Part shown: positions 2,657-42,116 of the stretch, one piece after another | Numbering within the stretch: position 1 is the stretch's first letter | Layout: every line of letters begins with the position of its first letter | From: Methanomicrobia archaeon | GTDB lineage: Archaea; Halobacteriota; Syntropharchaeia; Alkanophagales; Methanospirareceae | Length of the DNA: 64,000 nucleotides | Reading direction: 5' to 3' | Assembly: GCA_016930255.1 (NCBI GenBank) | Contig: JAFGHB010000022.1 | Location: 14,989 to 78,988, forward strand | Translations under genes and position numbers: made by a program | Notes under the pieces: model-generated | Databases searched by the model: none | What the model was told of the DNA's origin: nothing | Seen by the model: the letters and a program-made list of their open reading frames with translations, nothing else

Positions 2657-4027
2657 ATGAAAAAAGGCGTGAAGGTTTTGGGTGTGATTAATGATATTTA
2701 TCAGAAAGCGCCGATATTGGCAATTTGTGTGCTTTTTTTAGTAGCTATGGGCACAGTTTGCTTTGTATCTGCGTCTAATACGGCGTATAGCGTGCCAATT
2801 GGGGCAGAAGCAGAGGATTTGGCGGATAATAATTTGGTGCTCGCTTTTACCGGGGAGTTGGCTAATGGCGCTTTCAGCTCTCTCGAGGGATGGTCAGAAG
2901 ATATACGCGTAACCACGGATTCGTCAGATTCTTCTTACCCAGCAATTGCGGTGGATAGCACCAACAATGTCCATATAACCTGGTATGATTACAGGGACGG
3001 AAATGAGGAGATTTATTACACCAAGTTAGACAACAGTGGAACGACGCTGGTTGATGACACCCGCATAACCACGGATTCTGCAATTTCTGGGGGGCTCAGC
3101 AATTGCGGTGGATAGCACCAACAATGTTCATATAACCTGGGAAGATTACCGGGACGGAAACGCGGAAATTTATTACACCAAGTTAGACAGCAATGGAACG
3201 ACGCTGGTTGATGACACCCGCTTAACCACGGATTCTGCAGATTCTTCTTACCCAGCAATTGCGGTTGATAACACCAACTGTATCCACATAACTTGGGAAG
3301 ATTTGCGGGACGGAAATGAGGAGATTTATTACAAAAATAATTGTGGCGGTGCGCCACCAGAAAATCAACCACCAATCGTGGATTTTACGTACTCTCCGCT
3401 CCAACCGATTCTCGCTGAGACTGTAACCTTCAACGCCACCGCTTCGTACGACCCAGATGGTAATATCACAGGAGCTTTGGCGATGGAAACAGTACCAACA
3501 CAACAGAATCAACGATTACACATTCTTACGTTTCAATAGGTGAGTATACCGTGAACTTAACCGTAACCGATGACAAAGATGCAACGAATAAAACGTCCAG
3601 AGTGATTAAAGTTTTTCCGGACGTGCCCTACTTAGATACTGAACCAGGCACCTATCCAAGTATCTGCGGCCTCCATAACGGAACGATTGAGATGACACAT
3701 ACAGTTAACGTCAGTACAATCTATCTCTATCCGTGTACAGGCACTGGCGGGCATATCGAATACGCAAAGATATGGAACGCATCGTGGGAGGGGGCAGAGG
3801 CACACTGGCATGGGTACGTGGACAATTGGCACAATTGTTCGTTCGATACAAACTTTACGCTTGTGGCAGGTGCGATATACAACTACACGATCCGCACGGG
3901 CTCGTATCCGCAAATCCATCATCAACCCGAATTGTTGACTGCAAAAGGGTGGATCACGTGCTCGGAGTTCGTGGACATCAACGGTAAGAGGCACGAGGGC
4001 TGGATACCGGCGATTAGATTAGAATAA
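2657..4027 (+). pseudogene. membrane-anchored cell-surface protein with three tandem ~47-aa repeats and a PKD domain. It is interrupted by two single-base frameshifts, which may be homopolymer sequencing errors.
   Basis: Three consecutive ORFs (2657-3115, 3108-3539, 3551-4027) read as one protein once the frame changes at ~3090 (G6 run) and ~3470 are allowed for. The N-terminus has a TM helix (ILAICVLFLVAMGTVCFV). The repeat is SYPAIAVDSTNNVHITWxDYRDGNxEIYYTKLDxxGTTLVDDTRxTTDSA. The frame-corrected PKD domain is DPDGNITGSFGDGNSTNTTESTITHSYVSIGEYTVNLTVTDDKDATNKTSRVIKVF. Confidence 0.5.
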
Positions 4028-4867: not shown

Positions 4868-6382
4868 TTATTCGAACAGCAGCCGGGCGAGCATGCTGCT
4901 CTTCTTCTCGTCTCTTTCATCGGCCTCCTCTGAATCATCCGAATCCCACTCGACCGTCTTCGATACCGCTGCTTTTCTCGCTGCTCCTCCCCCTCTTGTC
5001 TCCGCAGCTCTACCGCCGTGCTCGCTCTTTCGCACACGGACATCGACCATAATGGGCATCTCGATGCTCGGACTCGAAAGTAACGCGACGCCCTGCGGTA
5101 TCCGCTTGATCTCCTCTTCCATCTCGCTGCTCATAAACTCCAGACCTCTGCTCAACGCCTTGATATCGTTCGGATTCGTCACCTTCAGGATGATCTGCGT
5201 ATTGCACTGCGAGATGACGTTCTTATCCACCCGCGCGGGTCGTTGCGAGATGACGAGCAGCCCCAGCCCGAACTTCCGGCCCTCCGACGCGATGGTTCTC
5301 AAAATATTTGAGCTGACCGCCTGCCCGAATCCCCGTTCCGGACAGAAGTTGTGCGCCTCCTCGATAACGAGCACAAACGGCGGAATCTTGCCCATCTTCC
5401 TGCCTTCAAAAACCTCTTTGCAGAGTCGGTAAACGATTAACTGCTGTAATTTCGGCTCGGCACCTTTCATATCGAGTATAGACGCCTTACCCTCTTTAAC
5501 GAGCTCTTCTATTCGTGTCGGGCTGTCGGAGAGTATGCCGGTATCCCGGATCCGTTCGAGGAAGTGGATGATCTTCCATTTGGTGGTGCTCTTGCTCTCG
5601 ACCACCTCCTTGATGATATCGTCGATCGTGTAAAACTCCTTTCGCGCTTTGATTTCGTTTATACATTGGTATAAAACGCCTAATTGCGCGTCAGACAACG
5701 TGAAGAAGTCATATAATTCGTTTACGCTCAGATTGATCCCATCGATGCGAAATAGCCTGTCCGCAGCTGGATTTATCGAGAAATTCGCCGGTGTGTACAC
5801 CACAACTTGAGGGGCATACCCTTTCGGCGCGATCGCGAATTTATCCATCTGCCTCCGCTCTTCTTCGCTCTGGTTCTCGTATTTCAGTGAGAGATACTCG
5901 CCGTGCGGGTCAACGATAAGCAACGGGACGTTCTTGTCGAGCAGCTCCTCGATGAGCACGCCAGCCGTGTACGACTTGCCACTGCCCGTCTTCGCCAGGA
6001 TGCTGCAGTGTTTCTGGATTAGCTCGTCTTTCTTCAGATAGACCGGAATGTCACGCCCGTCAAGCATACCCAGGTGGATGCCCTTGTTTTTGAGCCCCAG
6101 CGTGTCCATGACGAAACTCTGATCTGCTTTGAAGATCTTGGCATCACGCGGGAGCGTACTTTTTGGCTGCATCAGAAAGCCGCGTTCGTCTTTATACCCG
6201 ATGATCTCCACGGTTGCCGTCTTCTCTTCGACGTCAACCATAGATACGACACGCCCGAGGATCCAGCCGTCTAATTCATTCCATACCTTTACGTACTCGT
6301 TCCTCCTTACCTCGCTGGAGACGGTAAAATCGAACTCGTGCAGTCCAACATCACCCGAAATCGTGCCTACTAACTTATACAT
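4868..6382 (-). CDS. herA: HerA-like hexameric ATPase/helicase (DUF87, FtsK/HerA superfamily)
   Basis: 504 aa with an N-terminal HAS-barrel-like region, Walker A (ILAKTGSGKSYTAG), LLIVDPHGEY and a Walker B region (VLVIEEAHNF), plus an acidic C-terminal tail. Confidence 0.7.
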   Translation of the reverse strand: MYKLVGTISGDVGLHEFDFTVSSEVRRNEYVKVWNELDGWILGRVVSMVDVEEKTATVEIIGYKDERGFLMQPKSTLPRDAKIFKADQSFVMDTLGLKNKGIHLGMLDGRDIPVYLKKDELIQKHCSILAKTGSGKSYTAGVLIEELLDKNVPLLIVDPHGEYLSLKYENQSEEERRQMDKFAIAPKGYAPQVVVYTPANFSINPAADRLFRIDGINLSVNELYDFFTLSDAQLGVLYQCINEIKARKEFYTIDDIIKEVVESKSTTKWKIIHFLERIRDTGILSDSPTRIEELVKEGKASILDMKGAEPKLQQLIVYRLCKEVFEGRKMGKIPPFVLVIEEAHNFCPERGFGQAVSSNILRTIASEGRKFGLGLLVISQRPARVDKNVISQCNTQIILKVTNPNDIKALSRGLEFMSSEMEEEIKRIPQGVALLSSPSIEMPIMVDVRVRKSEHGGRAAETRGGGAARKAAVSKTVEWDSDDSEEADERDEKKSSMLARLLFE

Positions 6383-15893: not shown

Positions 15894-16313
15894 CTATCCC
15901 CGTCGCCTTCCACGGTATTTTACGAAAACTACCACCAACGATAGAAACACACATCCTGCCAGAATCCATAATAATATCGTTGTATTCGTAAAAATATCGT
16001 AAAAAGTATCACATAGTGATGGTTCGGGGCTTTCAGCCACGATAATCTCCCAACCATCGATCATCTCGTGGTGTAACCGCTCGTTCTCTGGTGTACGCTC
16101 GTAAACCCAGAGGGTAACTCTATATATTGACCTGTCTATGTCAGACGCAGCGATTTTCATCTCAGGGTCCTCTTTCCAGTTCTCTATTTGATCCCTGATC
16201 CAGGCTGCTTCTTCATCAGTTGCCGGTTCCGGAGCTAAGGTGGGTGCTGAACCGAGAGCGATACCTGTTGCTAGCACTGCTAAGATGATACCAATCGCAC
16301 ATAGCTCTTTCAT
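15894..16313 (-). CDS. small secreted/membrane-anchored protein. It carries the same C-terminal domain as the 16685-17629 gene product.
   Basis: Signal peptide, then MKIAASDIDRSIYRVTLWVYERTPENERLHHEMIDGWEIIVAE, then a C-terminal TM helix plus RGRRRG. The domain is shared with the 16685-17629 gene. Confidence 0.5.
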   Translation of the reverse strand: MKELCAIGIILAVLATGIALGSAPTLAPEPATDEEAAWIRDQIENWKEDPEMKIAASDIDRSIYRVTLWVYERTPENERLHHEMIDGWEIIVAESPEPSLCDTFYDIFTNTTILLWILAGCVFLSLVVVFVKYRGRRRG

Positions 16314-16400
16314 CTTCTTCTATCACTCCCTAATGTTTTATAAGTGCTTATTATTTACCTTATGTTTATTTTTGTTGATATTACTCTCATCCTCTTTATT

Positions 16401-16440
16401 TCTATAAAAAGGGAAAAAAGCTAACCTCTAAAGAGGTTAG
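16401..16440 (-). terminator. intrinsic-terminator-like hairpin followed by a T-tract (minus-strand sense)
   Basis: Perfect 10-bp inverted repeat GCTAACCTCT-AA-AGAGGTTAGC at 16419-16440, followed on the minus strand by TTTTTTCCCTTTTT. It lies downstream of the 16685-17629 gene. Confidence 0.5.
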
Positions 16441-16516
16441 CAAAAATTGTCGTAGCTCCTTACCCCCGATGTTTTAAAGTATCATTCATTTTTTCTCTTT
16501 GTGTCTTCTTATTCCA

Positions 16517-16640
16517 TTGGTCTGGTAGAGTCTTCGGCCACAATGATGTTCCAGCCATCGATCATCTCGCCGTGTAATCGCTCGTTCTCTGGTGTACGCT
16601 CATAAACTCAAAGGACAACCATCTTTTCCGCGTGATATAT
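16517..16640 (-). pseudogene. decayed fragment of the paralogous secreted-protein C-terminal domain
   Basis: The minus-strand translation ...VYERTPENERLHGEMIDGWNIIVAEDSTRPME is homologous to the C-terminal domain of the two flanking genes. It has an in-frame TGA in place of the conserved Trp and no start codon. Confidence 0.45.
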
Positions 16641-16684
16641 TGCAGTCGTGCTAATTCGCGTCTCCAGCATTTCTTATAATTCCC

Positions 16685-17629
16685 CTATTGCATCATATTT
16701 GTCTCAGCGGTGATCTCTGGTGACTTTTGGTCTTCTGCCACAATTATTTCCCATCCATCGATCATCTTTCTATGCAGTTGTTGGTTCTCCGATGTACGCT
16801 CATAAACCCACAGAGTAACTCTTTTTATCCCTCGGTCTATGTCCCATGCAGCAATTTGCATTTTGGGATTCTCTTTTAGGTCTTTTATCTTGGATTTCAT
16901 CAAAGCTACGTCATCATCGGTCACTTGAGCCAAACTTATCTTACTACTTGATACGTTACAATTTTCATCTATATACCAGGAATAAGAGGTAGTCGCATCT
17001 ATGTTGTCGCAACCGACATCGTTAGTGCTCTGAACTAAAACATACGTATCGTCCGTATCAGTGCCACAGGGCATCTGCCAATCCCCAGGCTCGATATCGT
17101 CCTCTCTATACTGAAAGAACCGCCAGTTATCAAAGTCACTCGTGCTGCCTCCCTCGTGCTCTGCGCAGACCGCATGATAAAATTCGAGATCGTTATTCCC
17201 TATGTAAGTATAATACACCGGGTCATCCTGACTTCCGTCATCCCAATCGGGATAGCAGTGCTCTGGATAAATGGCACTCCATTGCCAATAGCACTGCTCT
17301 ATTTCATCCTCAAAAGCCGGCGCGTATTGACTCTCTCCTGACCACCGTATAATCGCATTGTGCCTACACACTGCATCATTCCAGCTTTCCGATCCTCCCT
17401 GGCAATCGGATTGTCCACCTCGATAGTCCTCTATTACACCGGTCACGTATCCCCTAGATTCAATATCTAGATTTTCATCGATTACCTTACCGCCACATCC
17501 ACATCCTTCACATTCTGCTTCGGCTGTTTGGGAATCTCCTAGATAGAGTTGTGTAGATCCTAGAGCTACACCTGTTGCTATCACTACTAAAACACCAATC
17601 GTCCAAATCTTAGTCATCATTTTTTCCAC
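16685..17629 (-). CDS. Cys-rich acidic secreted protein with a C-terminal DIDR...LWVYERT...MIDGWEIIVAE domain
   Basis: Signal peptide (KIWTIGVLVVIATGVALGS), many Cys (CEGCGCGG...), and a C-terminal domain paralogous to the 15894-16313 product. It lies immediately downstream of conserved leader element copy A. Confidence 0.5.
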   Translation of the reverse strand: MEKMMTKIWTIGVLVVIATGVALGSTQLYLGDSQTAEAECEGCGCGGKVIDENLDIESRGYVTGVIEDYRGGQSDCQGGSESWNDAVCRHNAIIRWSGESQYAPAFEDEIEQCYWQWSAIYPEHCYPDWDDGSQDDPVYYTYIGNNDLEFYHAVCAEHEGGSTSDFDNWRFFQYREDDIEPGDWQMPCGTDTDDTYVLVQSTNDVGCDNIDATTSYSWYIDENCNVSSSKISLAQVTDDDVALMKSKIKDLKENPKMQIAAWDIDRGIKRVTLWVYERTSENQQLHRKMIDGWEIIVAEDQKSPEITAETNMMQ

Positions 17630-17640
17630 ATCACCCCCTA

Positions 17641-18045
17641 ACTTTTTTGGGTACTTATAAAGCGCCCCTCCTCGGCGCTTCGCCTTCCTTCTGCGGCTTT
17701 TCGCCCGTCAGGGATTCGCACCCTGTACGGGCCTCTCCTGCTTTTTTCTACACCTCATCTTCGCGCTCCTGAGCGCGAAATGTTGTGAGTTGTTTCAGCT
17801 TTAACTTAGTTAATAACCTATAGCACATTTATTATTAACCGTTGCCAATATTGCCGAAGGAAATCAATATTAGCTAACGCTGTCAGTGATCTGCACACCA
17901 AATAAGTTTCCTATAATCAGCCACGAGACTATCTCTGAGGAATCGGCCGATTCACAGAGGATCTTGGTGATCCCCATAGATTTCACCTTTAGAAGGAGGG
18001 AGGATAATTAACAAGCTTTCTTTCCTTTCCGCTTCCATAAAATTA
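17641..18045 (-). repeat. conserved leader element, copy A: promoter, structured 5' UTR and RBS shared by four operons
   Basis: Near-identical over ~200 nt to the copies at 20150, 22281 and 23645, and a further ~200 nt are shared with the 23645 copy. It contains the hairpin GCCCGTCAGGGATTCGCACCCTGTACGGGC (17703-17732), the palindrome TCGCGCTCCTGAGCGCGA, and GCGCC-CCTCCTC-GGCGC. The last reads, in mRNA sense, as an SD-like GAGGAGG in a hairpin loop. Confidence 0.7.
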
Positions 18046-18172
18046 TCCACCTTTGCTGCTCAAGCGCCCCTCCTCGACGCTCACTAATCACATCGTTCAA
18101 CCCCTGATAAAACCATCTTTTCGTTCACATTCGCCGAACGAAAAGCGAAGGTTTAAATAAAAATTGTATTTT

Positions 18173-19006
18173 CTACTCTTCACTGGCTGGTGAAGGAGTC
18201 AAAAGCGATTTCTCCCATTGATGCCCAACGTTGATAACTTCCCCCTGTTCAATGTCAACGAAAACCATTAATGTGACATTTCCTATTTTTATCGGAACTA
18301 CCGGGACTTCACCTGAAAAGTTCTCTTCGGGACCCGCTATCTCAATATGTGCTTTGCTTACATCCCCTATTTCGTATTCCTTGTTACGTATTTCTGCCCT
18401 AACCCGTTCATCCTTTAATGCAATTGCTATTGCATATCCCCTATCTTCTTCGCTTAAGTCGTGCTGCGGAGGCATCTCACCGTGCGTCAGATCTATTTCC
18501 GTAGCTAGCCCCCCGAAACGCTCCCATCGCCATTCTCCGTAATAAGGGTGCGGGGTAGCAAAATATCTTTTCCAATGAGCTTCTACTTGCACATCGTAGC
18601 TTTTACCGGCTTTTAAATCGAACGTATACTCAAAATGATAGGGTTGTCGATACTGTAACGTTATGTTTTCTGAGGAAGTTACCTCACGATCTCTACTATT
18701 AGGCACTCCAGCAAGCACGAGAATTCTCACGGGTAGGTCATCAGGCAGTGGTTCATCTTTGCTTGAACTTGAATACAGTGAGGAATCTTTATAGCGATAG
18801 GTAACATCTCCGGATAACGCCACCCGGTCCGTCGTTTCGTTGATACGAGTAACGTCCGTCCAGTTTAAATGCTCGATGTAGATATTACTATCTGGATTAC
18901 TGATTATGATGAGGTTCGTATGGAATAAAAGAAGATAGAGGACAATCAATACCGGAACGCCAACGGCAATGATTGCCTCAATGATATTCTTATTTCTTGT
19001 TCTCAT
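18173..19006 (-). CDS. hypothetical membrane-anchored protein; second gene of the peptidase operon
   Basis: 277 aa with one N-terminal TM helix. It overlaps the upstream peptidase gene by 17 nt. Confidence 0.45.
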   Translation of the reverse strand: MRTRNKNIIEAIIAVGVPVLIVLYLLLFHTNLIIISNPDSNIYIEHLNWTDVTRINETTDRVALSGDVTYRYKDSSLYSSSSKDEPLPDDLPVRILVLAGVPNSRDREVTSSENITLQYRQPYHFEYTFDLKAGKSYDVQVEAHWKRYFATPHPYYGEWRWERFGGLATEIDLTHGEMPPQHDLSEEDRGYAIAIALKDERVRAEIRNKEYEIGDVSKAHIEIAGPEENFSGEVPVVPIKIGNVTLMVFVDIEQGEVINVGHQWEKSLLTPSPASEE

Positions 19007-20138
19007 TTTTACTCTTCTGTTCCTTAACAGACGTAAACGTATCCGTTAGACCACTCGTCATCTCCGCATATATTCTCGTATACATTCTCTTCGAAGTTAA
19101 AAGATGCCTGCCTTGCCAATCGTACCATGACATCAAGTTTGTGCCCGTCCAGGTATTTGGGTCCCACAACGCGAAATTTTGCTGAGTGTCGTGATACCCA
19201 CGTACAACAACGGCATGACAGTTCCCCCACTGGCTCTCCTCGGTTATATAAAGTGGCCATTCGGTGTTTATTCTCTGCATTACGTGATTTATAGTACTCA
19301 GTAGTGAGCCCTGGTAATCGCCTTTATAGCAAGGAACATCGACTTCGTCGAAGTAAAGTTCTGCTTCTGTGGGAGACATCGGAGCATAACCATTCCATAC
19401 CCAAATGTCCCAGATATCTGGAGAATTGCTATTCCAATACTCTTCAAGCATTGCCGCACAGGTCTCACCACACGCTCTGCTGGCAGCATCGTAACCATGT
19501 CCATCGTAATACAACTCCCACTGACTACGCTGTGGTACATCAAGATATTTAGATCCTCTTGCGTCCATTGGTTGATCTGGATCATGAACGACCTCATCAA
19601 TCAGACCGTCTGAAGTACCGCGAAAAGCTACCTCATACTTCGTCTCATCAATAACTACTGATCCATGCAAGCCCCCGATACTATCTTCGAAGAATTCACC
19701 TTTGAGGGAAATCTGATTGCTCTTGTCGCTTAATTCGACGGCACACGCATACATTCTTGTAGCACCTTCATATCTTGTCATCGTTTTACCATGGAGATCC
19801 CTGTAAATCGGCTTAGCATCTTTGGGGACATTCCATCCCACGAAAATTTTCTCTGCTTTCCCTTCAAGATCCACGGCGTATGGCGTATCATCAATGGTAA
19901 TTGTACCTGCGAGCAAAAGGCAATTCTTCCCATCAATGGTACCGGATAGATACGCCTGAGCTGTTCTGTCCCCAGAAGGCTCGATTACTAGACCTCCTGG
20001 CTTATCTAAGCATAAAGTAATCTGCTTGCTTGTAGTAGCAGTTGATGCCGCATATTCTTTGGTCTGATCCTGAGCTATGGCCAGCCCGACACTGCATATC
20101 AGTATCCCTATTACGCCTATTACCCATATCTTCTTCAT
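18990..20138 (-). CDS. secreted papain-like cysteine peptidase, C39-like (Peptidase_C39_2-type)
   Basis: Signal peptide. The catalytic-Cys motif CGETCAAMLEEYW and the downstream His motif GNCHAVVVRGY resemble C39-like peptidase domains. Confidence 0.55.
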   Translation of the reverse strand: MKKIWVIGVIGILICSVGLAIAQDQTKEYAASTATTSKQITLCLDKPGGLVIEPSGDRTAQAYLSGTIDGKNCLLLAGTITIDDTPYAVDLEGKAEKIFVGWNVPKDAKPIYRDLHGKTMTRYEGATRMYACAVELSDKSNQISLKGEFFEDSIGGLHGSVVIDETKYEVAFRGTSDGLIDEVVHDPDQPMDARGSKYLDVPQRSQWELYYDGHGYDAASRACGETCAAMLEEYWNSNSPDIWDIWVWNGYAPMSPTEAELYFDEVDVPCYKGDYQGSLLSTINHVMQRINTEWPLYITEESQWGNCHAVVVRGYHDTQQNFALWDPNTWTGTNLMSWYDWQGRHLLTSKRMYTRIYAEMTSGLTDTFTSVKEQKSKNENKK

Positions 20139-20149
20139 CTTCTTCTAGC

Positions 20150-20460
20150 ACTTCCTAATTTTTGGTATTTCGCAAGCGCCCCTCCTCGGTGCCGCGCTTT
20201 CCTTCTTCGCCTTTTCGCCCGTCAGGGATTCGCACCCTGTACGGGCCTCTCCTGCTTTTTTCTACACCTCGTCTTCGCGCTCAGGAGCGCGAAATGCTGT
20301 GGCTTGTTTCAGCTTTAGATGATGAAATAATCTATAGCATATTTATTATTAACTGTGTTCGATATTACCGATAGAACTCAATATTAGCGAGTGCTTGCGG
20401 TGACCTGTACGTCAAACGAGTTCCTTATAATCTAGTGCATATTCTTTCAAACCTTTTTGA
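20150..20460 (-). repeat. conserved leader element, copy B
   Basis: Same GC-rich core as copies A and D, including the GCCCGTCAGGGATTCGCACCCTGTACGGGC hairpin and the TCGCGCTCAGGAGCGCGA palindrome (its centre is inverted relative to copy A). It sits directly 5' of the peptidase gene. Confidence 0.7.
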
Positions 20461-20528
20461 CGCTTTTTGAATGACGTCCGGTGAAAAAACGTTCGCCAAT
20501 CGAGTGATAGGAAAAATAAAAGGGGGAG

Positions 20529-21503
20529 TTAGTAAACCACCCCCAACGATTCCAGCTCTTCAGCTTGCACCGCGAGCACATAGTCGTGAAACGGCTCTTC
20601 CCTCCCTTCTGAATCAATGACCGTTCCAGTGAATGCGTATACCGGCAGAACAAAATCTTGTTTCGTTATTCGCGGTTCCATCCAATATCCAATGGATATC
20701 TCGTTGATAGTTGCTCGATCTGCCATCATCTCCAACGGTGGTTGTACACGGTTCTCGCCGGCAATTAGCTCTTTATATGCTTCTTCCGGTGTCTTTAGTG
20801 AAATTTCTCTGTAGGGCTCTATCGCTCTCCAATTCATTACTATTTCATGGACTTCACTATTATTACCTATGATCACTGCTAATTCATCGTGGCCATATAC
20901 TGGTAGGCCGTTGACGCTTCGAGAAAACCGCACGGCTAAGGACACATCGTAGGATATGATGGGTTCACTTGAACCCGCTCTCCAAATCTCGTATGTTTCA
21001 GAAACGCCCACATTTTTGAACTCTGCGTCTTCGGGCAATAGTTTTCTGGTCGAAAGATAGTCAGAAGCGATCTCCTTTGCATCGTTTTCGGATGGTAGGA
21101 TGGGCTGAGAGTCGACAGAAGCGGGATACTCCTTATAATACTGGATAGCTCCCGAAGCCTTATAAACGGTTACTTGCTTTCTTGTCCCTTCCGCCTCATC
21201 TACTAGACGAATCTTATCGTTTATACGAAGCTCTGCATTTTCAGTCAACCCAAATGTTCTACCAATGCCCTTTACGTAGTCGCTTGTAACCTCTGGAGTT
21301 ACCGTTTTATATACAAGATATGAATCACGTATCTCCGGAAAGGTGGCATTCAGCACGAATGTTGTTTCAGCACCTTCCTCGGACGGAGGGAATAGACCGG
21401 GAACCGCGTTAGTTCCTGTGTGCTCAACCCAAACCGTTGCAGCCGCAAATAGCACTGCTACCGTGACGACTATCCCTAAGATTACCCATAGTTTTTGTGT
21501 CAT
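20529..21503 (-). CDS. hypothetical membrane-anchored extracytoplasmic protein
   Basis: 324 aa, N-terminal TM, second gene after the 21519-22274 lipoprotein-like gene. Confidence 0.45.
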   Translation of the reverse strand: MTQKLWVILGIVVTVAVLFAAATVWVEHTGTNAVPGLFPPSEEGAETTFVLNATFPEIRDSYLVYKTVTPEVTSDYVKGIGRTFGLTENAELRINDKIRLVDEAEGTRKQVTVYKASGAIQYYKEYPASVDSQPILPSENDAKEIASDYLSTRKLLPEDAEFKNVGVSETYEIWRAGSSEPIISYDVSLAVRFSRSVNGLPVYGHDELAVIIGNNSEVHEIVMNWRAIEPYREISLKTPEEAYKELIAGENRVQPPLEMMADRATINEISIGYWMEPRITKQDFVLPVYAFTGTVIDSEGREEPFHDYVLAVQAEELESLGVVY

Positions 21504-21518
21504 TTTTTTTCTTCAATC

Positions 21519-22274
21519 CTAACTGCAACTATATGTCCACGTAGTATACCCTGAATTTACGGTTGGATCGGCGATAACAGAACCTTCACCCCAGATGTGG
21601 TCGTTCCCGCATGCTGAATTTTCGCCGATTATCCGTACCGTGTAATCTGAGCCATGTGTCTCGTCGATAGCGTGATACCACGCGTCTTTAACCGTCTCTC
21701 CGTCTAATAGATTATCTGCAAAATTACCGCCATCAACACAGTTCAGTGAAGAGGTTGTAAATCCACAGATCAAATGCACCCCATTGAGACCATAGTGGCT
21801 ACCCTTAAACCTATCTGGCTTTTCTGTTGAGTGACAGCCATGTAAGGCAATCCACTCCAAATCGTGATCTCCCCATTCGATCTCGTTGAAAAAACTCACC
21901 CACTTCGTATAGGTTGAAAGCTCCAGTCTGTTATTTTGCGCATGCCCCTGGTACCAGGCAATGTCGACACCATCGATGTACGTGGAATCTTGCCCATCGT
22001 GTTGAAAGTGCTCTTCTTTCGTGTTAGTATTACCTTTATCAAATTTTCGAGTCCAGCCAGCACTGCCCAATCCATTATAAAATGCTTTAGCGGAATCATC
22101 ACTATTTGGGAGATCACTGTGGGGCCAGCTATAATCTGTCACCCATTCAATGCCCACCTCAGGGGAGGTAGCATCGTTATCATCACCAGTCCCCGCAGTA
22201 GCACATGACATGAGAACCACCGAACTTACTGCTAGTATCAACGAAAGCTTCAAGCACACTGCTCTTCTTTTCAT
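21519..22274 (-). CDS. hypothetical secreted lipoprotein-like protein with conserved His/Cys motifs
   Basis: Signal peptide ending LMSCATAG; motifs IALHGCHS and GVHLICGF; no family recognised. Confidence 0.45.
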   Translation of the reverse strand: MKRRAVCLKLSLILAVSSVVLMSCATAGTGDDNDATSPEVGIEWVTDYSWPHSDLPNSDDSAKAFYNGLGSAGWTRKFDKGNTNTKEEHFQHDGQDSTYIDGVDIAWYQGHAQNNRLELSTYTKWVSFFNEIEWGDHDLEWIALHGCHSTEKPDRFKGSHYGLNGVHLICGFTTSSLNCVDGGNFADNLLDGETVKDAWYHAIDETHGSDYTVRIIGENSACGNDHIWGEGSVIADPTVNSGYTTWTYSCS

Positions 22275-22280
22275 TTATAA

Positions 22281-22355
22281 CACCTCCTAATTTTTTGGGT
22301 ATTTATAAAGCGCCCCTCCTCGGCGCCTCGCCTTCCTTCTGCGGCTTTTCGCCCC
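22281..22355 (-). repeat. conserved leader element, copy C (truncated to ~75 nt)
   Basis: CACCTCCTAATTTTTTGGGTATTTATAAAGCGCCCCTCCTCGGCGCCTCGCCTTCCTTCTGCGGCTTTTCGCCCC matches the gene-proximal part of copies A and D and then diverges. Confidence 0.65.
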
Positions 22356-22386
22356 TTCTTTGATATTTGATATTCTAAAGTTTGGC

Positions 22387-22785
22387 CTACACAACTAGCA
22401 TTATCCACAAAATAGCACCTATAATGACAAGAAAAAATCCGAGTTTTTTGTTACTATTTATTAGTATAGCTCCAGTTCCTATAATACTGAGACAAATACC
22501 CGAGTATATCCAAAATCTAAATACTACTCCAAATACAATAATATCGTACATGAAAAGGAGCATAAATGGGAGAAAGCTCACCGCTAGCACCGAAGGTATT
22601 TTACGAGACCACCCGCTATAAATTCCAACTATGAGTGGTAATGCAATTCGTCCGATTTGCGCGTAAAGCGGTCCATATTTTGGAGATATTTGCAATATTA
22701 CGGGGAAAAAAGGAAAGAGGAGGACTATAAAAAATACTAACAAAGTTAGTACCACGCTCCTCCATTTTATATGTTCATACTTCAT
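22387..22785 (-). CDS. hypothetical small polytopic membrane protein (AT-rich)
   Basis: 132 aa, four hydrophobic helices, AT-rich codon usage. Confidence 0.45.
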   Translation of the reverse strand: MKYEHIKWRSVVLTLLVFFIVLLFPFFPVILQISPKYGPLYAQIGRIALPLIVGIYSGWSRKIPSVLAVSFLPFMLLFMYDIIVFGVVFRFWIYSGICLSIIGTGAILINSNKKLGFFLVIIGAILWIMLVV

Positions 22786-22815
22786 GCGACTCTTCTCCTT
22801 CTATATTTTCATATT

Positions 22816-23637
22816 TCATGCGGTTAACTCGATAACTGGTGCTAACCCGTCGTTATCCCCCAAGTCATCATTGCCTAAGTCGGTATACCAAATATCTCCA
22901 ACGAACCCTTCATCTGCAAAGTCATCCTTTACAAAATCTTCTGCGTCTTCATAGCTGATATATTGGTGTCCCGTTCCCGTCCAACGCTCATAGTGTACGT
23001 TGGCATCACTCCAGTCATCCGCCCAGTGAGGATCTGAATATTCACTGCCGAAAATCCGTATGTGATACCTGTACCCAAAGTAATCACCGTTTTCAAGTTG
23101 ATAGTCTTGCACTTTCCAATAGGCTGTGCCACCATTCGCTGTGTCGTCGATGTACGTCCGCGCTGACCAACCTGTAGCACCATCCCATGTATTATCGATC
23201 CAATTCTGCATGTCATATTGAACATCCCAAGCGTTACCAGTATTATAAAATATCAGATTTATGGGATCATCTTCCACCCCGGGGGCGAGGACATCTTGAT
23301 AAGCCCAAAAATTTATGCATTTCTCGCCGACTTTGACTAGCTTCAACTTGACTTCAATATCATCTGGAGTCTCTTCTAGCTCCTCAGCCCAATCCTTAAT
23401 CGCTTGATTCACCAATTTTTCACCCTTTTCTCCCAAATTCTTTCGAAGGAAATTGAAATGCTCTTCGTTGGCTTCTAAGAATTCTTCCATACTTGGTTTC
23501 TTAATTGTTACGATCTCTTCCCTAATCTCTGAAGGGATCATCTTTTTGTTATTATCTGGAAGAACCGTAGCTGTTGTTGCAGCTATTGCAGTGATTAACA
23601 CCGCTACAACGATTGTCGAGATAAGCGTCTTTTTCAT
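22816..23637 (-). CDS. hypothetical acidic secreted protein
   Basis: 273 aa with a signal peptide (LISTIVVAVLITAIAATTA); rich in D/W/Y. It lies immediately downstream of leader copy D. Confidence 0.5.
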   Translation of the reverse strand: MKKTLISTIVVAVLITAIAATTATVLPDNNKKMIPSEIREEIVTIKKPSMEEFLEANEEHFNFLRKNLGEKGEKLVNQAIKDWAEELEETPDDIEVKLKLVKVGEKCINFWAYQDVLAPGVEDDPINLIFYNTGNAWDVQYDMQNWIDNTWDGATGWSARTYIDDTANGGTAYWKVQDYQLENGDYFGYRYHIRIFGSEYSDPHWADDWSDANVHYERWTGTGHQYISYEDAEDFVKDDFADEGFVGDIWYTDLGNDDLGDNDGLAPVIELTA

Positions 23638-23644
23638 TTTACCC

Positions 23645-24050
23645 TATCACCCCCTAACTTTTTTGGGTACTTATAAAGCGCCCCTCCTCGGCGCCTCGCC
23701 TTCCTTCTTCGCCTTTTCGCCCGTCAGGGATTCACACCCTGTACGGGCCTCTCCTGCTTTTTTCTACACCTCGTCTTCGCGCTTCTGAGCACGAAATGTT
23801 GTGAGTTATTTAAGCTTTAAATTAGTTAACATCCTATAGCCTATTTATTATTAACCGTTGCCAATATTGCTGCTAGGAAGTAGTATTAGCTAACGCGGTC
23901 AACGATATTAACGCTAGATAAGTTTCCTATAATCGGCTACGAGAACTATCCTGGGGGAATCTGCCGATTCAAAGAGGTTTCCGGTGATTTCCATGAACAT
24001 CGCCTTTAGAAGGGGGAATTAACGAGTCTTCTTTCCTTTTCTATCCGATC
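23645..24050 (-). repeat. conserved leader element, copy D (~400 nt)
   Basis: Nearly identical to copy A from the RBS (AAAAAAGTTAGGGGGTGAT) through the GC-rich hairpins and on into the distal ATTAGCTAACGC...ATAAGTTTCCTATAATC...CCTTTAGAAGG segment. Confidence 0.7.
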
Positions 24051-24127
24051 CGATTCGCTTCCTATCTTCACCAAAACCAATAAGGCCACGGAAAAACAGT
24101 TCTTTGATCGCCTAGCGACATGCGGCA

Positions 24128-24907
24128 TCACCTCAAAGATCGCTTGAAGATCGGTATCGCTTCCCGTTTATGCCGCGACGCTTCCACCATTCGTTTTACC
24201 CGTTCCACCACTTCGGATTCGTAACCGCTCGTGCTCTCTAAATCCCCCATTTCCAGTGCGGTAAGAGCACGATCCAAAGCCGCATAGCTCATACCGATCT
24301 CCGCTTCGTCTGTTTGGCCCGCCCAGAGACCTGCACTCGGCGCTTTCTCGATTATCTCTTCGGGAATGCCAAGCGCCTCCGCCAATTCCCGCTCTTCCGT
24401 CTTCAGCACGTCGCCGAGCGGCAGTATATCCGCAGCGCCATCGCCGTATTTGGTAAAATACCCAATAGAAAGCTCGCTCTTGTTCCCCGTGCCGACGACC
24501 AGATAGTTGAGCTGATTCGCGAAGTAATAAAGGCAGATCATCCGGAGACGCGGTTTGAGGTTCGCAATTGCCATATCTACGTCACCATCCACGTCACCAT
24601 CGTGCGGGCGCTCTTCCACATCTAACAACTCCAGCAAGAGCGTGAAGACCGGTGTGAGGTCGATCTCCTTCGTCTCGATGCCAAACCGAGCGGCAACCAG
24701 CTTCGCATGTGCTACGTCTTCGTTACGTGAAAAGCACGGGAGTATCAAGCCCAAGGTGGTATCGGGAAACGCTCGTTTACATAACACGGCAACGACGGAC
24801 GAGTCCAGTCCGCCACTCATGCCCACGACCACACCCCGGGCACCTGCTGCCTCCACGCGTTCTCGTATCCAGTCGCTTATACGCGATGCCAAGTCCGTTG
24901 GTTGCAT
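24128..24907 (-). CDS. nadE: NH3-dependent NAD+ synthetase
   Basis: PP-loop VVGMSGGLDSSVVAVLC and the ~260-aa NadE architecture. Confidence 0.85.
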   Translation of the reverse strand: MQPTDLASRISDWIRERVEAAGARGVVVGMSGGLDSSVVAVLCKRAFPDTTLGLILPCFSRNEDVAHAKLVAARFGIETKEIDLTPVFTLLLELLDVEERPHDGDVDGDVDMAIANLKPRLRMICLYYFANQLNYLVVGTGNKSELSIGYFTKYGDGAADILPLGDVLKTEERELAEALGIPEEIIEKAPSAGLWAGQTDEAEIGMSYAALDRALTALEMGDLESTSGYESEVVERVKRMVEASRHKREAIPIFKRSLR

Positions 24908-30149: not shown

Positions 30150-31868
30150 GTGAATAGAATGGAGGATAATATACAATCTTCACGGGTGATATTCTTTTTA
30201 GGTGCTGGTGCATCCGTTGCTGCTGGGGTTCCCGATACGTATTCCTTTGTTGAAGAATTTAGAGAGAGTATAAGTGACGCTGCTAAAAAAGAATCAATTA
30301 ATCAAATAATCGAGACTCTAGAGGAGTGGAAAGGATCAGAGATTGACATTGAACTCTTATTAGAGACATTAACAAAACTTGAAAGGAAAGATGAAGAACC
30401 ACTAACATCGTTTTTTAAAGAAGATAAGTTCGCTTTAAGCGATTTAACTCTAATAGAACCATTGATAAAAGATTTGAAAGATTTTATTAAAAGCAAAGCT
30501 ATTGTATCAGAGGAGTCAATAAAATATTTGGAACCAATTCTTGGATTCTTGGAAGAACCTTTAGATATTATATCGGTGAATTATGACACCTGTATAGAGC
30601 AGTTCTGTAATGTTTACAGACGTGTCTATCAGGATGGTTTTGAACTTGAATGGAATCCAAAGACTTTTGCTAAGGAACACACAGATATTCGTCTTTATAA
30701 GTTACATGGATCAGTAATGTGGTATCAAAGCGACAAAGCAGGTTACGTCAAAGTACCTATTAGGACAATGGAAAGCGAAATAGAACTTATTACTCGTGAG
30801 AAAGCTATTAACCTCATGCTTTACCCAATGCAAAAGTGGGATTATGCCGAACCGCTTTTAGAACTGCTCGTGGAGATAAAACATCGTCTTGAGTCAGAAA
30901 CGTGCAAGTTTTTGGTTATCGTGGGGTATTCTTTCAGAGATGAACATATCAGAAGGCTACTTTGGGATGCAGCGAGGAAAAACAAAAAACTCACGTGTAT
31001 ATTGATAGATCCGAAGGCATATCAGATTTACTCTAATAAACTTAAATATTATGATGATGCGTCAAAAATTCCCTCATCATTGTATGAACGTGTTGTTTGT
31101 TTGCCGTATAAATTTGAGAAAGTATTCCCTTCCGTCAAAAATTATTACTTACTCAATCTGCAGAATGGTCTTGGTCGTTATGATTCTTTACGTCAACAAG
31201 AAACCATTGAGGGTAAAAAGATAGACTGGATTGCTTGCATCCCTGAGTTGGTAAATGCAGAACATTGTGAAATAGTAGAGCACTTACTTGATCGAATTAA
31301 TGTAACTAAATTTGAAAGAAATTTAGAATTGAACCTTAATTTGCTACTGAAAATGTTTGTTAATTACTCAGCCAGTAACCAAACAGAGAAGGCAGCTGAA
31401 TATTTCCAAAAATTCATTAGTTTTCTTCAAACAATCTTTGTGGAAAGATTAGATCTAGAGGTTTCGAGAGAGCCTAGATTCCCTTCTATTCTGTGGAATT
31501 GCATTCCCACCGATTCAGGTAGGAGTTATCATGATACGAACCAAATAAAGATATTCATTGAAAATTTGTTTGATTTTTGTAACGAGAGAGTAGAGTGGGT
31601 TCAAGAGTCAAGCGATGATTTTTGGAAGGTTAACGAAACGCTAAACTCACTAAATATATATCTGGAGGAGTTTGTAGATGAAACCAAGGATTTTGGAGCG
31701 TATATTACTCTGAGGACTAAAGAAATAGCGGATGTCGTAGGGGATGTCGAAGAATTTAGAAAAAAATACCAAGGAAAAGCGCTTGCGTCGAATGAAGAAC
31801 AAAATGAGCTGAGATCAAAGATTGTGAACATCGAGAAAAACATTTTAACAGGAATTTTAGGGGAGTAG
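30150..31868 (+). CDS. SIR2-like (SIR2_2/DSR-type) domain protein with an uncharacterised helical C-terminal domain; candidate NAD-consuming defence protein
   Basis: VIFFLGAGASVAAGVP (SIR2 GAGxS motif), IISVNYDTCIEQ (SIR2_2 NYD motif), IRLYKLHGSVMW (SIR2_2 KLHGS motif). It is 572 aa, and the gene plus flanks are distinctly AT-rich. Alternative start ATG at 30159. Confidence 0.65.
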   Translation: MNRMEDNIQSSRVIFFLGAGASVAAGVPDTYSFVEEFRESISDAAKKESINQIIETLEEWKGSEIDIELLLETLTKLERKDEEPLTSFFKEDKFALSDLTLIEPLIKDLKDFIKSKAIVSEESIKYLEPILGFLEEPLDIISVNYDTCIEQFCNVYRRVYQDGFELEWNPKTFAKEHTDIRLYKLHGSVMWYQSDKAGYVKVPIRTMESEIELITREKAINLMLYPMQKWDYAEPLLELLVEIKHRLESETCKFLVIVGYSFRDEHIRRLLWDAARKNKKLTCILIDPKAYQIYSNKLKYYDDASKIPSSLYERVVCLPYKFEKVFPSVKNYYLLNLQNGLGRYDSLRQQETIEGKKIDWIACIPELVNAEHCEIVEHLLDRINVTKFERNLELNLNLLLKMFVNYSASNQTEKAAEYFQKFISFLQTIFVERLDLEVSREPRFPSILWNCIPTDSGRSYHDTNQIKIFIENLFDFCNERVEWVQESSDDFWKVNETLNSLNIYLEEFVDETKDFGAYITLRTKEIADVVGDVEEFRKKYQGKALASNEEQNELRSKIVNIEKNILTGILGE

Positions 31869-41703: not shown

Positions 41704-42116
41704 GCTGAACCAACCGCCATTAGCCCTGCGTATAGATCTATATTCGCTTTGTACGTGAAAAACATTGCGGCGACTGCACTGCACTGTACATCCCTAAGCA
41801 CGAGAGAGACGGATAGGTATGACCCACATTTTCACCACGTACTAACTAAACTACTGCTGACGAGTGCTGAGTGCCGCTTGCGCCCTTCATAACCCCCTCC
41901 CCGTCACAGACAGACCGTGGCGCAAAAGCGTCACCGCATAAAAGCATGAAGAAGGACAGGTGGTGGTTTCTTACTTTCACTGGCTGGTAACGGAGAAAAA
42001 AGCGTGTTCCGTCCAAAAGTCGGGAGCACCCCTGCAGCGAAACGGTAGTTAAAAGAAAAATAAATAGATAACCCCCAATAGTTTGTATTAGTGATTCCGT
42101 TATCTGATTGCAGGAT

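What the first reader, a model, noticed from the sequence alone, without database searches (positions are those of the whole stretch)
17641..24050. Four copies of a conserved, highly structured 200-400-bp leader module in front of non-homologous secreted-protein operons
Copies at 17641-18045, 20150-20460, 22281-22355 and 23645-24050 sit directly 5' of four minus-strand operons whose coding sequences are unrelated: a Cys-rich protein, a C39-like peptidase, a lipoprotein and an acidic secreted protein. Identity runs from the ribosome-binding site (AAAAAAGTTAGGGGGTGAT, mRNA sense) through about 200 nt, and stops exactly at the start codons. Copies A and D share a further ~200 nt, ending in an AT-rich TATA-like stretch (TTAATAATAAATGTGCTATAGG). 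The module contains three structures: an 11-bp hairpin GCCCGTCAGGG-ATTCGCA-CCCTGTACGGGC; an 8-bp palindrome TCGCGCTC-NN-GAGCGCGA, whose centre is inverted between copies and which is degenerate in D, suggesting selection for structure or for a dyad operator; and GCGCC-GAGGAGG-GGCGC, a strong SD-like sequence held in a hairpin loop ~40 nt upstream of the real RBS. On the plus strand the main hairpin is followed by CTTTTTTCT, which looks like a terminator, so an antisense or bidirectional small transcript is conceivable. This fits a shared propagated promoter and 5'-UTR regulatory RNA, or an operator for one regulator, controlling a rapidly diversifying set of extracellular proteins. I do not recognise it as any known riboswitch or mobile element.
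Basis: seen in the sequence. Interest (0 to 1): 0.85.

Follow-up and report, generated by a model that had tools for sequence, protein, structure and literature searches.

The report
Shared promoter-leader module, secreted-protein cassettes
An uncultured ANME-1-like archaeon places one conserved upstream unit (a likely promoter, a structured untranslated leader and a very strong ribosome-binding site) in front of several unrelated secreted-protein genes, and these repeated units also appear to act as recombination points that reshuffle the genes between related genomes.

Summary
There are four same-orientation copies (A 17630-18046, B 20139-20460, C 22275-22355 truncated, D 23638-24127) and a fifth short remnant (18055-18146), each 5' of an unrelated minus-strand gene for a secreted protein.

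No Rfam family matches, the ends carry no terminal inverted repeats, and no integrase lies nearby. Relatives from six other lineages carry the same 80-nt core upstream of other secreted-protein genes.

The first hairpin is supported as an RNA structure on the mRNA strand: 93% of cells are paired, two pairs show compensatory changes, and there are 14 G·U cells against 4 A·C cells. Its top resembles a tRNA T-arm.

The second hairpin is conserved in sequence, not by covariation. It presents GAGGAGG, and in the short forms it sits about 30 nt after a TATA-like box.

The distal half shows no RNA covariation and consists of three dyads upstream of a TATA-like box. The whole module is 73-100% identical between genomes whose nadE third codon positions are only 50% identical.

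Five gene arrangements follow nadE, and one exchange breakpoint lies inside module B.

Best reading: a propagated promoter, leader and ribosome-binding-site expression module that also serves as a recombination substrate. The antisense small-RNA idea is disfavoured. I rate this a new variant of a known kind.

The parts
17630..18046 (-). Module A (full length), 5' of the Cys-rich 314-aa secreted-protein gene (16685-17629; the likely start ATG is at 17618-17620).
20139..20460 (-). Module B, 5' of the C39_2 peptidase gene (18990-20138) and the 277-aa gene (18173-19006). The distal part, beyond about 20330, travels with the upstream cassette.
22275..22355 (-). Module C. It is truncated to the GA-rich spacer, the second hairpin and the ribosome-binding site, and lies 5' of the DUF6345 gene (21519-22274) and the 324-aa gene (20529-21503).
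23638..24127 (-). Module D (full length). It starts directly after the nadE stop codon and lies 5' of the 273-aa acidic protein gene (22816-23637) and a 132-aa membrane ORF (22387-22785).
18055..18146 (-). Remnant of the short-form (type-2) module. It comprises a terminator-like hairpin (18117-18145), a TATA-like GTTTTATCA (18105-18113), second hairpin GCGTC-GAGGAGG-GGCGC (18064-18080) and a ribosome-binding site followed by ATG. It is homologous to the L041 and L045 modules.
17703..17732 (-). First hairpin of A (also B 20217-20246 and D 23719-23748): GCCCGU-A-CAGGG UGCGAAU CCCUG-ACGGGC. The upper stem and loop resemble a tRNA T-arm.
17679..17702 (-). Purine-rich spacer GAAAAG(C/G)CG(C/A)AGAAGGAAGGCGA(A/G) between the two hairpins. 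It is the best-conserved stretch (91-100% between genomes).
17662..17678 (-). Second hairpin of A (also B 20176-20192, C 22310-22326 and D 23678-23694): GCGCC GAGGAGG GGCGC. It displays a Shine-Dalgarno-like loop about 45 nt upstream of the real ribosome-binding site.
17630..17639 (-). Ribosome-binding site AGGGGGUGAU of A (D 23646-23655; B about 20149-20158, degenerate). It is preceded by the conserved UACCC-A6-KUU.
17760..17779 (-). 9+9-bp palindrome TTCGCGCTC..GAGCGCGAA (B 20274-20293; D 23776-23795, degenerate). The centre is inverted between A and B. Its 5' half is absent from L005, L009 and L014; the 3' half is still recognisable in L009.
17827..17839 (-). TATA-like GTTAATAATAAAT (B 20341-20353; D 23843-23855), invariant in all full copies. 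The predicted transcription start is about 30 nt downstream, giving a leader of roughly 165 nt.
17844..17987 (-). Distal regulatory half with three dyads: GCCAATATTG-N11-CAATATTAGC (17844-17874), GAATCGGCCGATTC (17940-17953) and GGTGAT..ATCACC (17966-17987).

Best explanation
The repeat is a portable cis-acting expression module. It is not a gene of its own and not a transposon.

Its distal half (about 200 bp) is a regulatory region made of three dyad-symmetric protein-binding-type sites, followed by a TATA-like box (GTTAATAATAAAT).

Its proximal half is transcribed as a leader of about 165 nt on the mRNA strand. That leader contains a stable stem-loop with a T-arm-like top (first hairpin), an invariant purine-rich tract, a short hairpin presenting GAGGAGG (second hairpin), and an unusually long Shine-Dalgarno sequence (AGGAGGUGAU) 7-9 nt before the start codon.

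The oldest and minimal unit is the second hairpin plus the ribosome-binding site. In the short-form modules this hairpin sits where the transcript should begin.

Inferred mechanism: the leader gives high, co-ordinated expression of secreted proteins. I propose that the first and second hairpins protect the 5' end, and that the Shine-Dalgarno-like loop recruits 30S subunits. This would resemble the STAB-SD stabiliser of Bacillus, which blocks a 5'-3' exonuclease. Euryarchaeota have such an enzyme, aRNase J (PMC7144898). The distal dyads would let one regulator control all the cassettes.

Because the modules are direct repeats, homologous recombination between them deletes, adds and exchanges the gene cassettes they flank. 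That makes the region downstream of nadE a hypervariable island.

Shown: the repeats themselves, their spread across lineages, the RNA structure of the first hairpin on the sense strand, constraint above neutral, and an exchange breakpoint inside a module.

Inferred: the transcription start, the stabiliser and translation role, the regulator, and secretion of the downstream proteins.
For: - Repeats and anatomy.
- Fixed orientation and a fixed distance to the start codon in 14 or more copies from the window and from L004, L005, L009, L011, L014, L015, L033-L040, L041-L043 and L045.
- The downstream genes are unrelated (C39_2, DUF6345, an M12 reprolysin-like peptidase, and several with no Pfam family), and those examined begin with hydrophobic, signal-peptide-like N-termini.
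- First hairpin: 93.2% of cells paired against 30-57% for slid controls; 2 pairs with double-sided changes; covariation score 0.182 against 0.107 for shuffles (0 of 500 shuffles as high).
- Sense-strand folds are always more stable than antisense folds, for example -13.8 against -6.6 kcal/mol. G·U cells number 14 against 4 A·C cells.
- Indels of 1, 3 and 5 nt inside the core exclude a coding function.
- The TATA-like motif matches those upstream of nadE, pfkB and tRNA-His in the same genome.
- In all short forms a TATA-like box lies about 30 nt upstream of the second hairpin.
- Module identity between genomes is 73-100%, while nadE third codon positions are 50% identical.
- The distal half shows no RNA covariation and consists of dyads.
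- Five arrangements are found downstream of nadE.
- A segment with 47-50 of 50 bases identical in nearly every 50-nt window (96% over the whole blastn match) ends inside module B, while the flanking housekeeping genes are 75% identical.
- STAB-SD precedent: PMC4113751. aRNase J in Euryarchaeota: PMC7144898.
Against: - There are no transcript data, so the transcription start, the leader length and even transcription across the element are predictions.
- Covariation in the first hairpin rests on very few independent events (essentially one clade: L009, L014, L037). The shuffle control does not correct for relatedness.
- The second hairpin has no covariation, so it could equally be a DNA site.
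- Copy C lacks the first hairpin, so that hairpin is dispensable for at least one gene.
- High identity among copies and between genomes could partly reflect gene conversion or lateral exchange rather than purifying selection.
- Metagenome assemblies can be chimeric at repeats, which weakens the breakpoint argument.
- Only 64 kb of this genome was scanned, and the copies found there are clustered. A genome-wide regulon is therefore not shown.
Confidence: 0.6

Rival explanations
1. The conserved pieces act as DNA, not RNA. The second hairpin (GCGCC-N7-GGCGC), the palindrome and the distal dyads would be operators for one or a few transcription factors, and the 'leader' conservation would reflect protein-DNA contacts around the transcription start.
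For: The second hairpin is a dyad with no covariation. In the short forms it sits at the predicted transcription start, the classic position for an archaeal repressor. Membrane-anchored winged-helix regulators lie directly next to short-form modules in L041 and L045, and an HTH_5/HTH_20 (ArsR-type) gene lies next to the full-length copy in L037. The distal half is made of dyads and shows no RNA covariation.
Against: The two half-sites of the second hairpin behave asymmetrically. The 3' arm and the loop are almost invariant, while the 5' arm drifts (GCGCC, GCGTC, GCACC, GCATC). The first hairpin shows compensatory changes and a strand-specific excess of G·U pairs. The core has a strong purine/pyrimidine strand asymmetry. 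No homologue of those regulators occurs in the window or in L004 and L011.
Confidence: 0.15
2. The core encodes a roughly 90-nt antisense or trans-acting small RNA on the plus strand. It would have a CCUCCUC (anti-Shine-Dalgarno) loop, a CU-rich seed, and a terminal hairpin followed by a U-run.
For: On the plus strand the main hairpin is followed by CTTTTTTCT in A, B and D, and by T6-T8 in L004, L011, L015 and L005. The plus strand also folds with z = -4.8. A CU-rich RNA could pair with the purine-rich ribosome-binding sites.
Against: - Every diverged copy folds worse on the plus strand.
- G·U cells number 14 on the mRNA strand, against 4 cells that would be G·U on the plus strand.
- The T-run is only T4 in L009, L014 and L037.
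- The only plus-strand TATA-like box (CTTATAAAG) abuts the second hairpin, and it is missing in B, L005, L014 and the short forms.
- Copy C and the short forms keep the second hairpin and the ribosome-binding site but lack the proposed terminator hairpin.
- The element always keeps a fixed distance and orientation to a start codon.
Confidence: 0.07
3. The copies are simply recent local duplications or gene-conversion tracts of an ordinary intergenic region. They would have no function beyond providing a promoter and ribosome-binding site, and the hairpins would be incidental.
For: All window copies lie within 6.5 kb, and none was found in the other 57 kb. Copy boundaries differ from copy to copy. 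Recombination between copies is evident.
Against: The 80-nt core is 90-93% identical in genomes where everything around it is unalignable (L005, L009, L014). In those genomes it again precedes secreted-protein genes. The spacer and the second hairpin are 89-100% identical where synonymous sites are 50% identical. The stem of the first hairpin changes compensatorily.
Confidence: 0.1
4. The module is a non-autonomous mobile element (MITE-like), or an integron-type cassette recombination site.
For: It is repeated, it sits at cassette boundaries, and contigs from several assemblies break at it.
Against: There are no terminal inverted repeats or target-site duplications at the ends. Copy ends are ragged (450, 330, 75 and 45 nt). 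The module contains the ribosome-binding site of the downstream gene. No integrase or transposase was found among the window ORFs scanned against Pfam. The genuine IS elements that did insert into it, in L015 and L033, show their own inverted repeats and target duplications.
Confidence: 0.04

Closest known systems
Putative mobile promoters / promoter propagation (Matus-Garcia, Nijveen & van Passel 2012, PMC3488235)
   Same: Highly similar upstream regions (at least 80% identity over 50-100 nt or more) lie in front of non-homologous genes within one genome and across genera. They are read as re-used regulatory DNA.
   Different: Here the unit is much longer (up to 450 nt) and includes a structured leader and the ribosome-binding site. 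It is tied to one functional class (secreted proteins), is arranged as a tandem array, and demonstrably marks recombination junctions. The host is an uncultured archaeon.
STAB-SD 5' mRNA stabiliser of Bacillus thuringiensis cry3A (Agaisse & Lereclus 1996, as reviewed in PMC4113751)
   Same: A Shine-Dalgarno-like sequence lies in the 5' UTR, far from the start codon and close to the (predicted) 5' end of the stable transcript. The host lineage has a 5'-3' exonuclease of the RNase J type (PMC7144898).
   Different: Here the Shine-Dalgarno-like sequence is held in a 7-nt hairpin loop. 30S binding, stabilisation and the position of the 5' end are all untested, and the domain of life differs.
Conserved upstream expression cassettes of bacterial variable surface-protein loci (from my own knowledge: Mycoplasma vsp/vlp 5' regions; Borrelia upstream homology sequences)
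   Same: A conserved promoter, 5' UTR and sometimes signal-peptide block precedes a set of variable extracellular protein genes. It doubles as a substrate for recombination that changes the repertoire.
   Different: In those systems the genes are paralogues, and switching is often driven by a site-specific recombinase or by gene conversion into an expression site. Here the genes are unrelated families, each copy appears independently expressible, and no dedicated recombinase is seen.
tRNA acceptor/T-arm minihelix and T-loop motif
   Same: The upper stem and loop of the first hairpin, CAGGG-UGCGAAU-CCCUG, differ at 3 of 17 positions from the T-arm of the window's own tRNA-His, CUGGG-UUCGAAU-CCCAG. 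The stem is stacked on a 6-bp GC-rich helix, like an acceptor stem.
   Different: There is no cloverleaf. ARAGORN and the Rfam tRNA model do not report it. Position 55 is G, not U, and a purine bulge interrupts the helix.

Membership tests
Any Rfam 15 family (riboswitches, leaders, small RNAs) | A match to a curated covariance model | tested here: not met
   A gathering-threshold scan of the whole window found only tRNA-His. A permissive scan of 17500-24200 at E<=10 gave three chance matches to lncRNA models, all outside the modules.
Riboswitch | A conserved multi-helix aptamer with covariation, coupled to an expression platform that alternately hides the ribosome-binding site or forms a terminator | tested here: not met
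   RNAalifold predicts only two independent simple hairpins. Pairing of UACCC with the Shine-Dalgarno sequence is weak and not conserved. There is no junction or pseudoknot.
Putative mobile promoter (PMC3488235) | At least 80% nucleotide identity over 50-100 nt of upstream region, in front of non-homologous coding sequences of the same genome | tested here: met
   Four 64-nt copies at 80-97% identity, and 300-nt copies at 77-88%. The downstream proteins share no family.
MITE / IS-derived element | Terminal inverted repeats and target-site duplication at defined ends | tested here: not met
   No terminal inverted repeats in or around A and D. Copy ends are ragged.
Integron gene-cassette array | An adjacent tyrosine-recombinase integrase and attC-type sites at cassette 3' ends; cassettes mostly promoterless | tested here: not met
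   No integrase or recombinase among the 30 window ORFs scanned against Pfam. Each cassette carries its own promoter-like module at its 5' end.
STAB-SD-type 5' stabiliser | A Shine-Dalgarno-like sequence complementary to the 16S 3' end, located in the 5' UTR and not serving a start codon | tested here: met
   GAGGAGG is the loop sequence in all copies except L015 and L033-L036, which have GGGGAGG, and lies about 45 nt upstream of the real AGGAGGUGAU. No start codon lies 5-10 nt downstream in A, C and D. B and the short forms have a TTG at +7, so the result is inconclusive for those.
STAB-SD-type 5' stabiliser | Lies at or near the 5' end of the stable transcript, and stabilises it by binding 30S and blocking a 5'-3' exonuclease | not testable with these tools
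   There is only positional inference: a TATA-like box about 30 nt upstream of the second hairpin in the short forms.
tRNA / tRNA-like element | A cloverleaf, or at least an uninterrupted acceptor plus T-arm minihelix with a UUCRANY T-loop | tested here: inconclusive
   The T-arm-like stem and loop are present. The helix is interrupted by a bulge, position U55 is G, and neither ARAGORN nor the Rfam tRNA model reports it.
Small protein-coding gene / upstream ORF | A conserved reading frame | tested here: not met
   The ATG of a 16-codon upstream ORF is present in A, L011b, L015 and L034 but absent from B, D and both L004 copies. Indels of 1 and 5 nt lie inside the core. The plus-strand ORFs are not shared between copies.

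The most novel reading that the evidence does not exclude
The module would be an archaeal 'punctuation and stabiliser' leader. In this reading the first hairpin mimics a tRNA acceptor/T-arm minihelix and is cut by RNase P or tRNase Z. That cut would release each cassette's mRNA from read-through transcripts of the tandem array. The second hairpin, with its Shine-Dalgarno-like loop, would then dock a 30S subunit and shield the new 5' end from aRNase J. The same portable unit would also be the recombination handle by which ANME-1 archaea swap secreted-protein cassettes between lineages.
Probability: 0.12. Interest if true: 0.8.

Novelty: new variant of a known kind. Interest (0 to 1): 0.5.

Why it matters
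ANME-1 archaea are uncultured methane oxidisers for which almost nothing is known about gene regulation or RNA biology.

A compact, sequence-defined expression module shared by unrelated secreted-protein genes would provide:

- a handle for predicting a co-regulated extracellular repertoire (peptidases and unknown proteins) from sequence alone;
- a candidate new cis-acting RNA motif, possibly a 5' stabiliser or processing signal, that can be tested in tractable methanogens and might serve as an expression part;
- a concrete example in archaea of how repeated regulatory DNA drives cassette turnover in a chromosomal island.

If it proves to be only a re-used promoter, it is an ordinary though tidy case of promoter propagation.

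Tried and rejected
- Rfam at both the gathering and the permissive threshold: nothing.
- Viral contig scan for the core: 0 hits.
- The genome contigs and metagenome contigs pattern scans gave 14 loci, of which 8 were chance matches in other, largely GC-rich sequence, two of them named bacterial genomes (L002, L003, L006-L008, L010, L012, L013).
- I looked for the module upstream of homologues of the 139-aa protein in MAGs labelled Methanocellales or Methanomicrobia and in unnamed metagenome contigs (L016-L032). None was found with nhmmer or with the covariance model R1.
- I looked for further copies in the rest of the window with R1: none.
- Terminal inverted repeats: none.
- Conserved small ORFs on either strand: rejected.
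- A proximal TTTATAAG box as the promoter: rejected as the main promoter. It would start transcription downstream of the conserved Shine-Dalgarno sequence, and it is absent from B, L005, L014 and the short forms.
- An RNA structure in the distal half: the RNAalifold covariation term is unfavourable, at +0.81.
- A link to the winged-helix regulators seen next to short-form modules: no homologue in the window or in the close relatives.
- K-turn or C/D-box reading of CUGA and GAUGA: considered by eye only and dropped, because these motifs are not conserved between copies.
- PDB sequence search with the DUF6345 protein: no hit.

Full report
**1. Observation**

The region 17.6-24.1 kb contains four same-orientation copies of one upstream module. 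The repeat finder groups 17621-17920, 20135-20434 and 23637-23936 as a 300-nt family (77-88% identity). It also reports four 64-nt copies (17643, 20157, 22291, 23659) at 80-97% identity.

The 30-nt hairpin occurs three times and the GCGCC-CCTCCTC-GGCGC motif five times. Dinucleotide shuffles give 0 and 0.07.

A MAFFT alignment shows:
- A and D align over about 450 nt.
- B aligns over about 330 nt.
- C aligns over only the proximal 75-80 nt.

All copies end at the start codon of a minus-strand gene. Those genes are a Cys-rich 314-aa protein, a Peptidase_C39_2 protein, a DUF6345 protein and a 273-aa acidic protein, and they share no family. All begin with hydrophobic, signal-peptide-like N-termini. 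The signal peptides after A and B, and that of the neighbouring 139-aa gene, resemble each other (KIWxIG...).

**2. Host and context**

The window is part of a 106,725-nt contig of an NCBI MAG labelled 'Methanomicrobia archaeon' (locus tags JW878_). Its RadA protein is 87-89% identical to proteins named Methanophagales / ANME-1.

The rest of the window is ordinary chromosome: AspRS, RadA, phosphoglycerate mutase, argininosuccinate lyase, P5C reductase and others. No integrase or transposase lies near the cassettes.

**3. What it is not**

- No Rfam family matches at either threshold.
- There are no terminal inverted repeats.
- It does not code for protein. The core carries 1-, 3- and 5-nt indels, and no ORF is shared between copies.
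- It is not an assembly artefact. Independent assemblies from other samples carry it in the same context.

**4. Comparative evidence**

Pattern scans and protein-guided look-ups recovered genuine copies in several places:
- a syntenic MAG contig, L004;
- metagenome contigs L011, L015 and L033-L036, also syntenic downstream of nadE;
- more distant genomes, L005, L009, L014 and L037-L040, where only the core of about 80-110 nt is alignable (90-93% identity) and again precedes genes for secreted proteins.

L009 and L014 together show that this second lineage also has consecutive unrelated genes each preceded by a module.

A 'short form' has only the second hairpin, a GA-rich tract and the ribosome-binding site. 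It occurs in L004, L011, L041-L043, L045 (two copies, before a Cys-rich protein and a C39_2 peptidase) and in the window at 18055-18146.

Homologues of the 139-aa protein in MAGs labelled Methanocellales or Methanomicrobia and in unnamed metagenome contigs lack the module. Its distribution is therefore narrow.

**5. Anatomy and constraint**

On the mRNA (minus) strand the order is:
1. three dyads: GGTGAT-N10-ATCACC, GAATCGGCNGATTC and GCTAATATTG-N11-CAATATTGGC;
2. an invariant GTTAATAATAAAT;
3. a variable spacer of about 15 nt;
4. a conserved UAAAGCUGA... stretch;
5. a 9+9 palindrome;
6. an A-run;
7. the first hairpin;
8. an invariant purine tract;
9. the second hairpin;
10. UACCC-A6-KUUAGGAGGUGAU;
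11. 7-9 nt, then the ATG.

ATAAAT(A/G)-type boxes lie 25-55 nt upstream of nadE, pfkB and tRNA-His in this genome. The module's box is therefore a credible TATA box, which predicts a leader of about 165 nt. That is unusually long for this window.

Between the window and the L011 and L034 genomes, nadE third codon positions are only 50% identical. Over the same comparison the module is:
- 73-76% identical in the distal half;
- 86-91% at the TATA box;
- 81-95% over the A-run and first hairpin;
- 91-100% in the spacer;
- 89-100% in the second hairpin.

The whole unit is therefore constrained or exchanged, not drifting.

**6. RNA or DNA, and which strand**

RNAalifold on ten copies predicts only the two hairpins.

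On a 12-copy alignment with the structure I named:
- 93.2% of cells pair, against 30-57% when partners are slid.
- Two pairs of the first hairpin have changes on both sides.
- The covariation score is 0.182 against 0.107 in shuffles, with 0 of 500 shuffles as high.

The compensatory changes come from one clade, so this evidence is modest.

Strand evidence is consistent. Every diverged copy folds better on the mRNA strand: L004b -13.8 against -6.6, L009 -14.4 against -7.5, L014 -15.7 against -10.1 kcal/mol. There are 14 G·U cells against 4 A·C cells.

The upper stem and loop of the first hairpin (CAGGG-UGCGAAU-CCCUG) closely resemble the T-arm of the window's tRNA-His (CUGGG-UUCGAAU-CCCAG). No tRNA finder reports it.

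The second hairpin shows no covariation. Its loop is GAGGAGG (GGGGAGG in the L015/L034 lineage) and its 3' arm GGCGC (GGUGC in L034), both otherwise invariant, while the 5' arm drifts uncompensated. It is selected as sequence.

In all short forms a TATA-like box lies about 30 nt upstream of the second hairpin. This places the hairpin at the predicted 5' end of the transcript.

The distal half has an unfavourable covariation term (+0.81) and is best read as protein-binding dyads.

**7. Recombination**

Five arrangements follow nadE:
- window: D-273aa/132aa-C-DUF6345/324aa-B-C39/277aa-A-Cys-rich;
- L011: module-Cys-rich;
- L034 and L036: module-C39;
- L015: module interrupted by an IS;
- L033: module-C39, with an IS at the start codon.

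A sixth, L004, starts inside a module at its contig end, so nadE is not seen there. It carries module-DUF6345/324aa-module-M12 peptidase/126aa-short form-277aa.

All of these are explained by unequal crossing-over or deletion between direct repeats.

L004 matches the window at 47-50 of 50 bases in nearly every 50-nt window from 22355 to about 20330. That stretch is the cassette plus the distal part of module B. Identity then drops to about 82% in the core of B and is lost in the next gene. Flanking housekeeping genes are 75% identical. The exchange breakpoint therefore lies inside a module, near the AT-rich box.

The CAGG/CCTG flip in the centre of the palindrome is a small DNA-level inversion.

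**8. Mechanism (inferred)**

The best reading is a portable promoter, leader and ribosome-binding-site module that gives strong, co-regulated expression of secreted proteins.

For the second hairpin I propose a STAB-SD-like role. In Bacillus, a Shine-Dalgarno-like sequence near the 5' end binds a 30S subunit and blocks RNase J1 (PMC4113751). aRNase J, a 5'-3' exonuclease, is conserved in Euryarchaeota (PMC7144898).

The first hairpin may add 5' protection, or may serve as a processing or protein-binding site. Copy C shows that it is dispensable.

None of this is tested. Transcription starts are predictions.

**9. Rivals**

- DNA operators only: confidence 0.15. This is plausible for the second hairpin and for the dyads.
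- Plus-strand small RNA: 0.07. It is contradicted by the strand asymmetry, by the missing promoter and by copies that lack the 'terminator'.
- Neutral duplication: 0.1. It is contradicted by cross-lineage conservation.
- MITE or integron: 0.04. There are no inverted repeats, target duplications or integrase.

**10. Comparison and verdict**

The module meets the operational definition of a putative mobile promoter (PMC3488235). It works like the conserved upstream expression blocks of bacterial variable surface-protein loci.

It is longer and more structured than those. It is tied to secretion, it is arranged in tandem, and it occurs in an uncultured archaeal lineage. Its RNA core is not in Rfam.

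I class it as a new variant of a known kind, with interest 0.5. The tRNA-minihelix processing plus stabiliser reading is not excluded (probability about 0.12) and would be considerably more interesting.

Noticed in passing
L015:2735-2745 and contig end; L033:8540-9790: Two different IS elements have inserted into the module in natural populations. In L015 the insertion follows TTTATAA (inverted repeats CCTTAACTCCG, duplication TTATA). In L033 it is at the start codon of the C39 gene (inverted repeats GGCTTCATCCCGAAAAG, duplication AGAAGATGA). Either insertion would cut the gene off from its module.
   Followed up: partly
window 15894-16880; L004 3891-4724: A roughly 60-aa domain (…WIRDQIENWKENPEMKIAA…VTLWVYERTPENExLHxxMIDGWEIIVAE) recurs in several places: at the C-terminus of the Cys-rich protein, in the 139-aa protein, as a pseudogene fragment at 16533-16619, and three times in an L004 protein. 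It is a lineage-specific repeat domain with no significant Pfam match, only a weak DUF7346 hit below the threshold.
   Followed up: partly
window 2906-3333: A tandem repeat of 157 nt, 2.7 copies at 83% identity, spans three consecutive plus-strand ORFs (2657-3115, 3108-3539, 3551-4027). At least two reading frames are involved. The unit is not a multiple of 3, so this looks like a frameshifted repeat-protein gene or a sequencing error.
   Followed up: no
window 18170-18212 and 41967-42009: A 43-nt sequence containing the inverted repeat CTTCAC-TGGCTG-GTGAAG occurs twice at 77% identity. One copy is at the 3' end of the 277-aa gene and the other is about 110 nt upstream of tRNA-His.
   Followed up: no
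window 4868-6382, 30150-31868, 52494-55364: Defence-type domains are scattered across the window: a HerA/DUF87 ATPase, a SIR2_2-domain protein and a 956-aa DUF4062-TPR protein. They are not adjacent to each other or to the cassette island.
   Followed up: no
L041:385-858 and 1956-2444; L045:5051-5524: Winged-helix regulators of about 157 aa with C-terminal hydrophobic, membrane-anchor-like segments (HTH_20 / HVO_A0261_N) sit directly upstream of short-form modules in two lineages. No homologue occurs in the window.
   Followed up: partly
window 22387-22785: The NCBI protein accessions of the two flanking genes (MBN1762152 and MBN1762153) are consecutive, so the 132-aa membrane ORF between the 273-aa gene and module C appears not to be annotated in the NCBI record. 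Whether it is a real gene is open.
   Followed up: no
window 20330-22355 vs L004 368-2400: The DUF6345 + 324-aa cassette is nearly identical between two genomes (47-50 of 50 bases in almost every 50-nt window) whose flanking housekeeping genes are only 75% identical. This suggests recent lateral exchange of a cassette, or alternatively a chimeric metagenome assembly at the repeats.
   Followed up: partly
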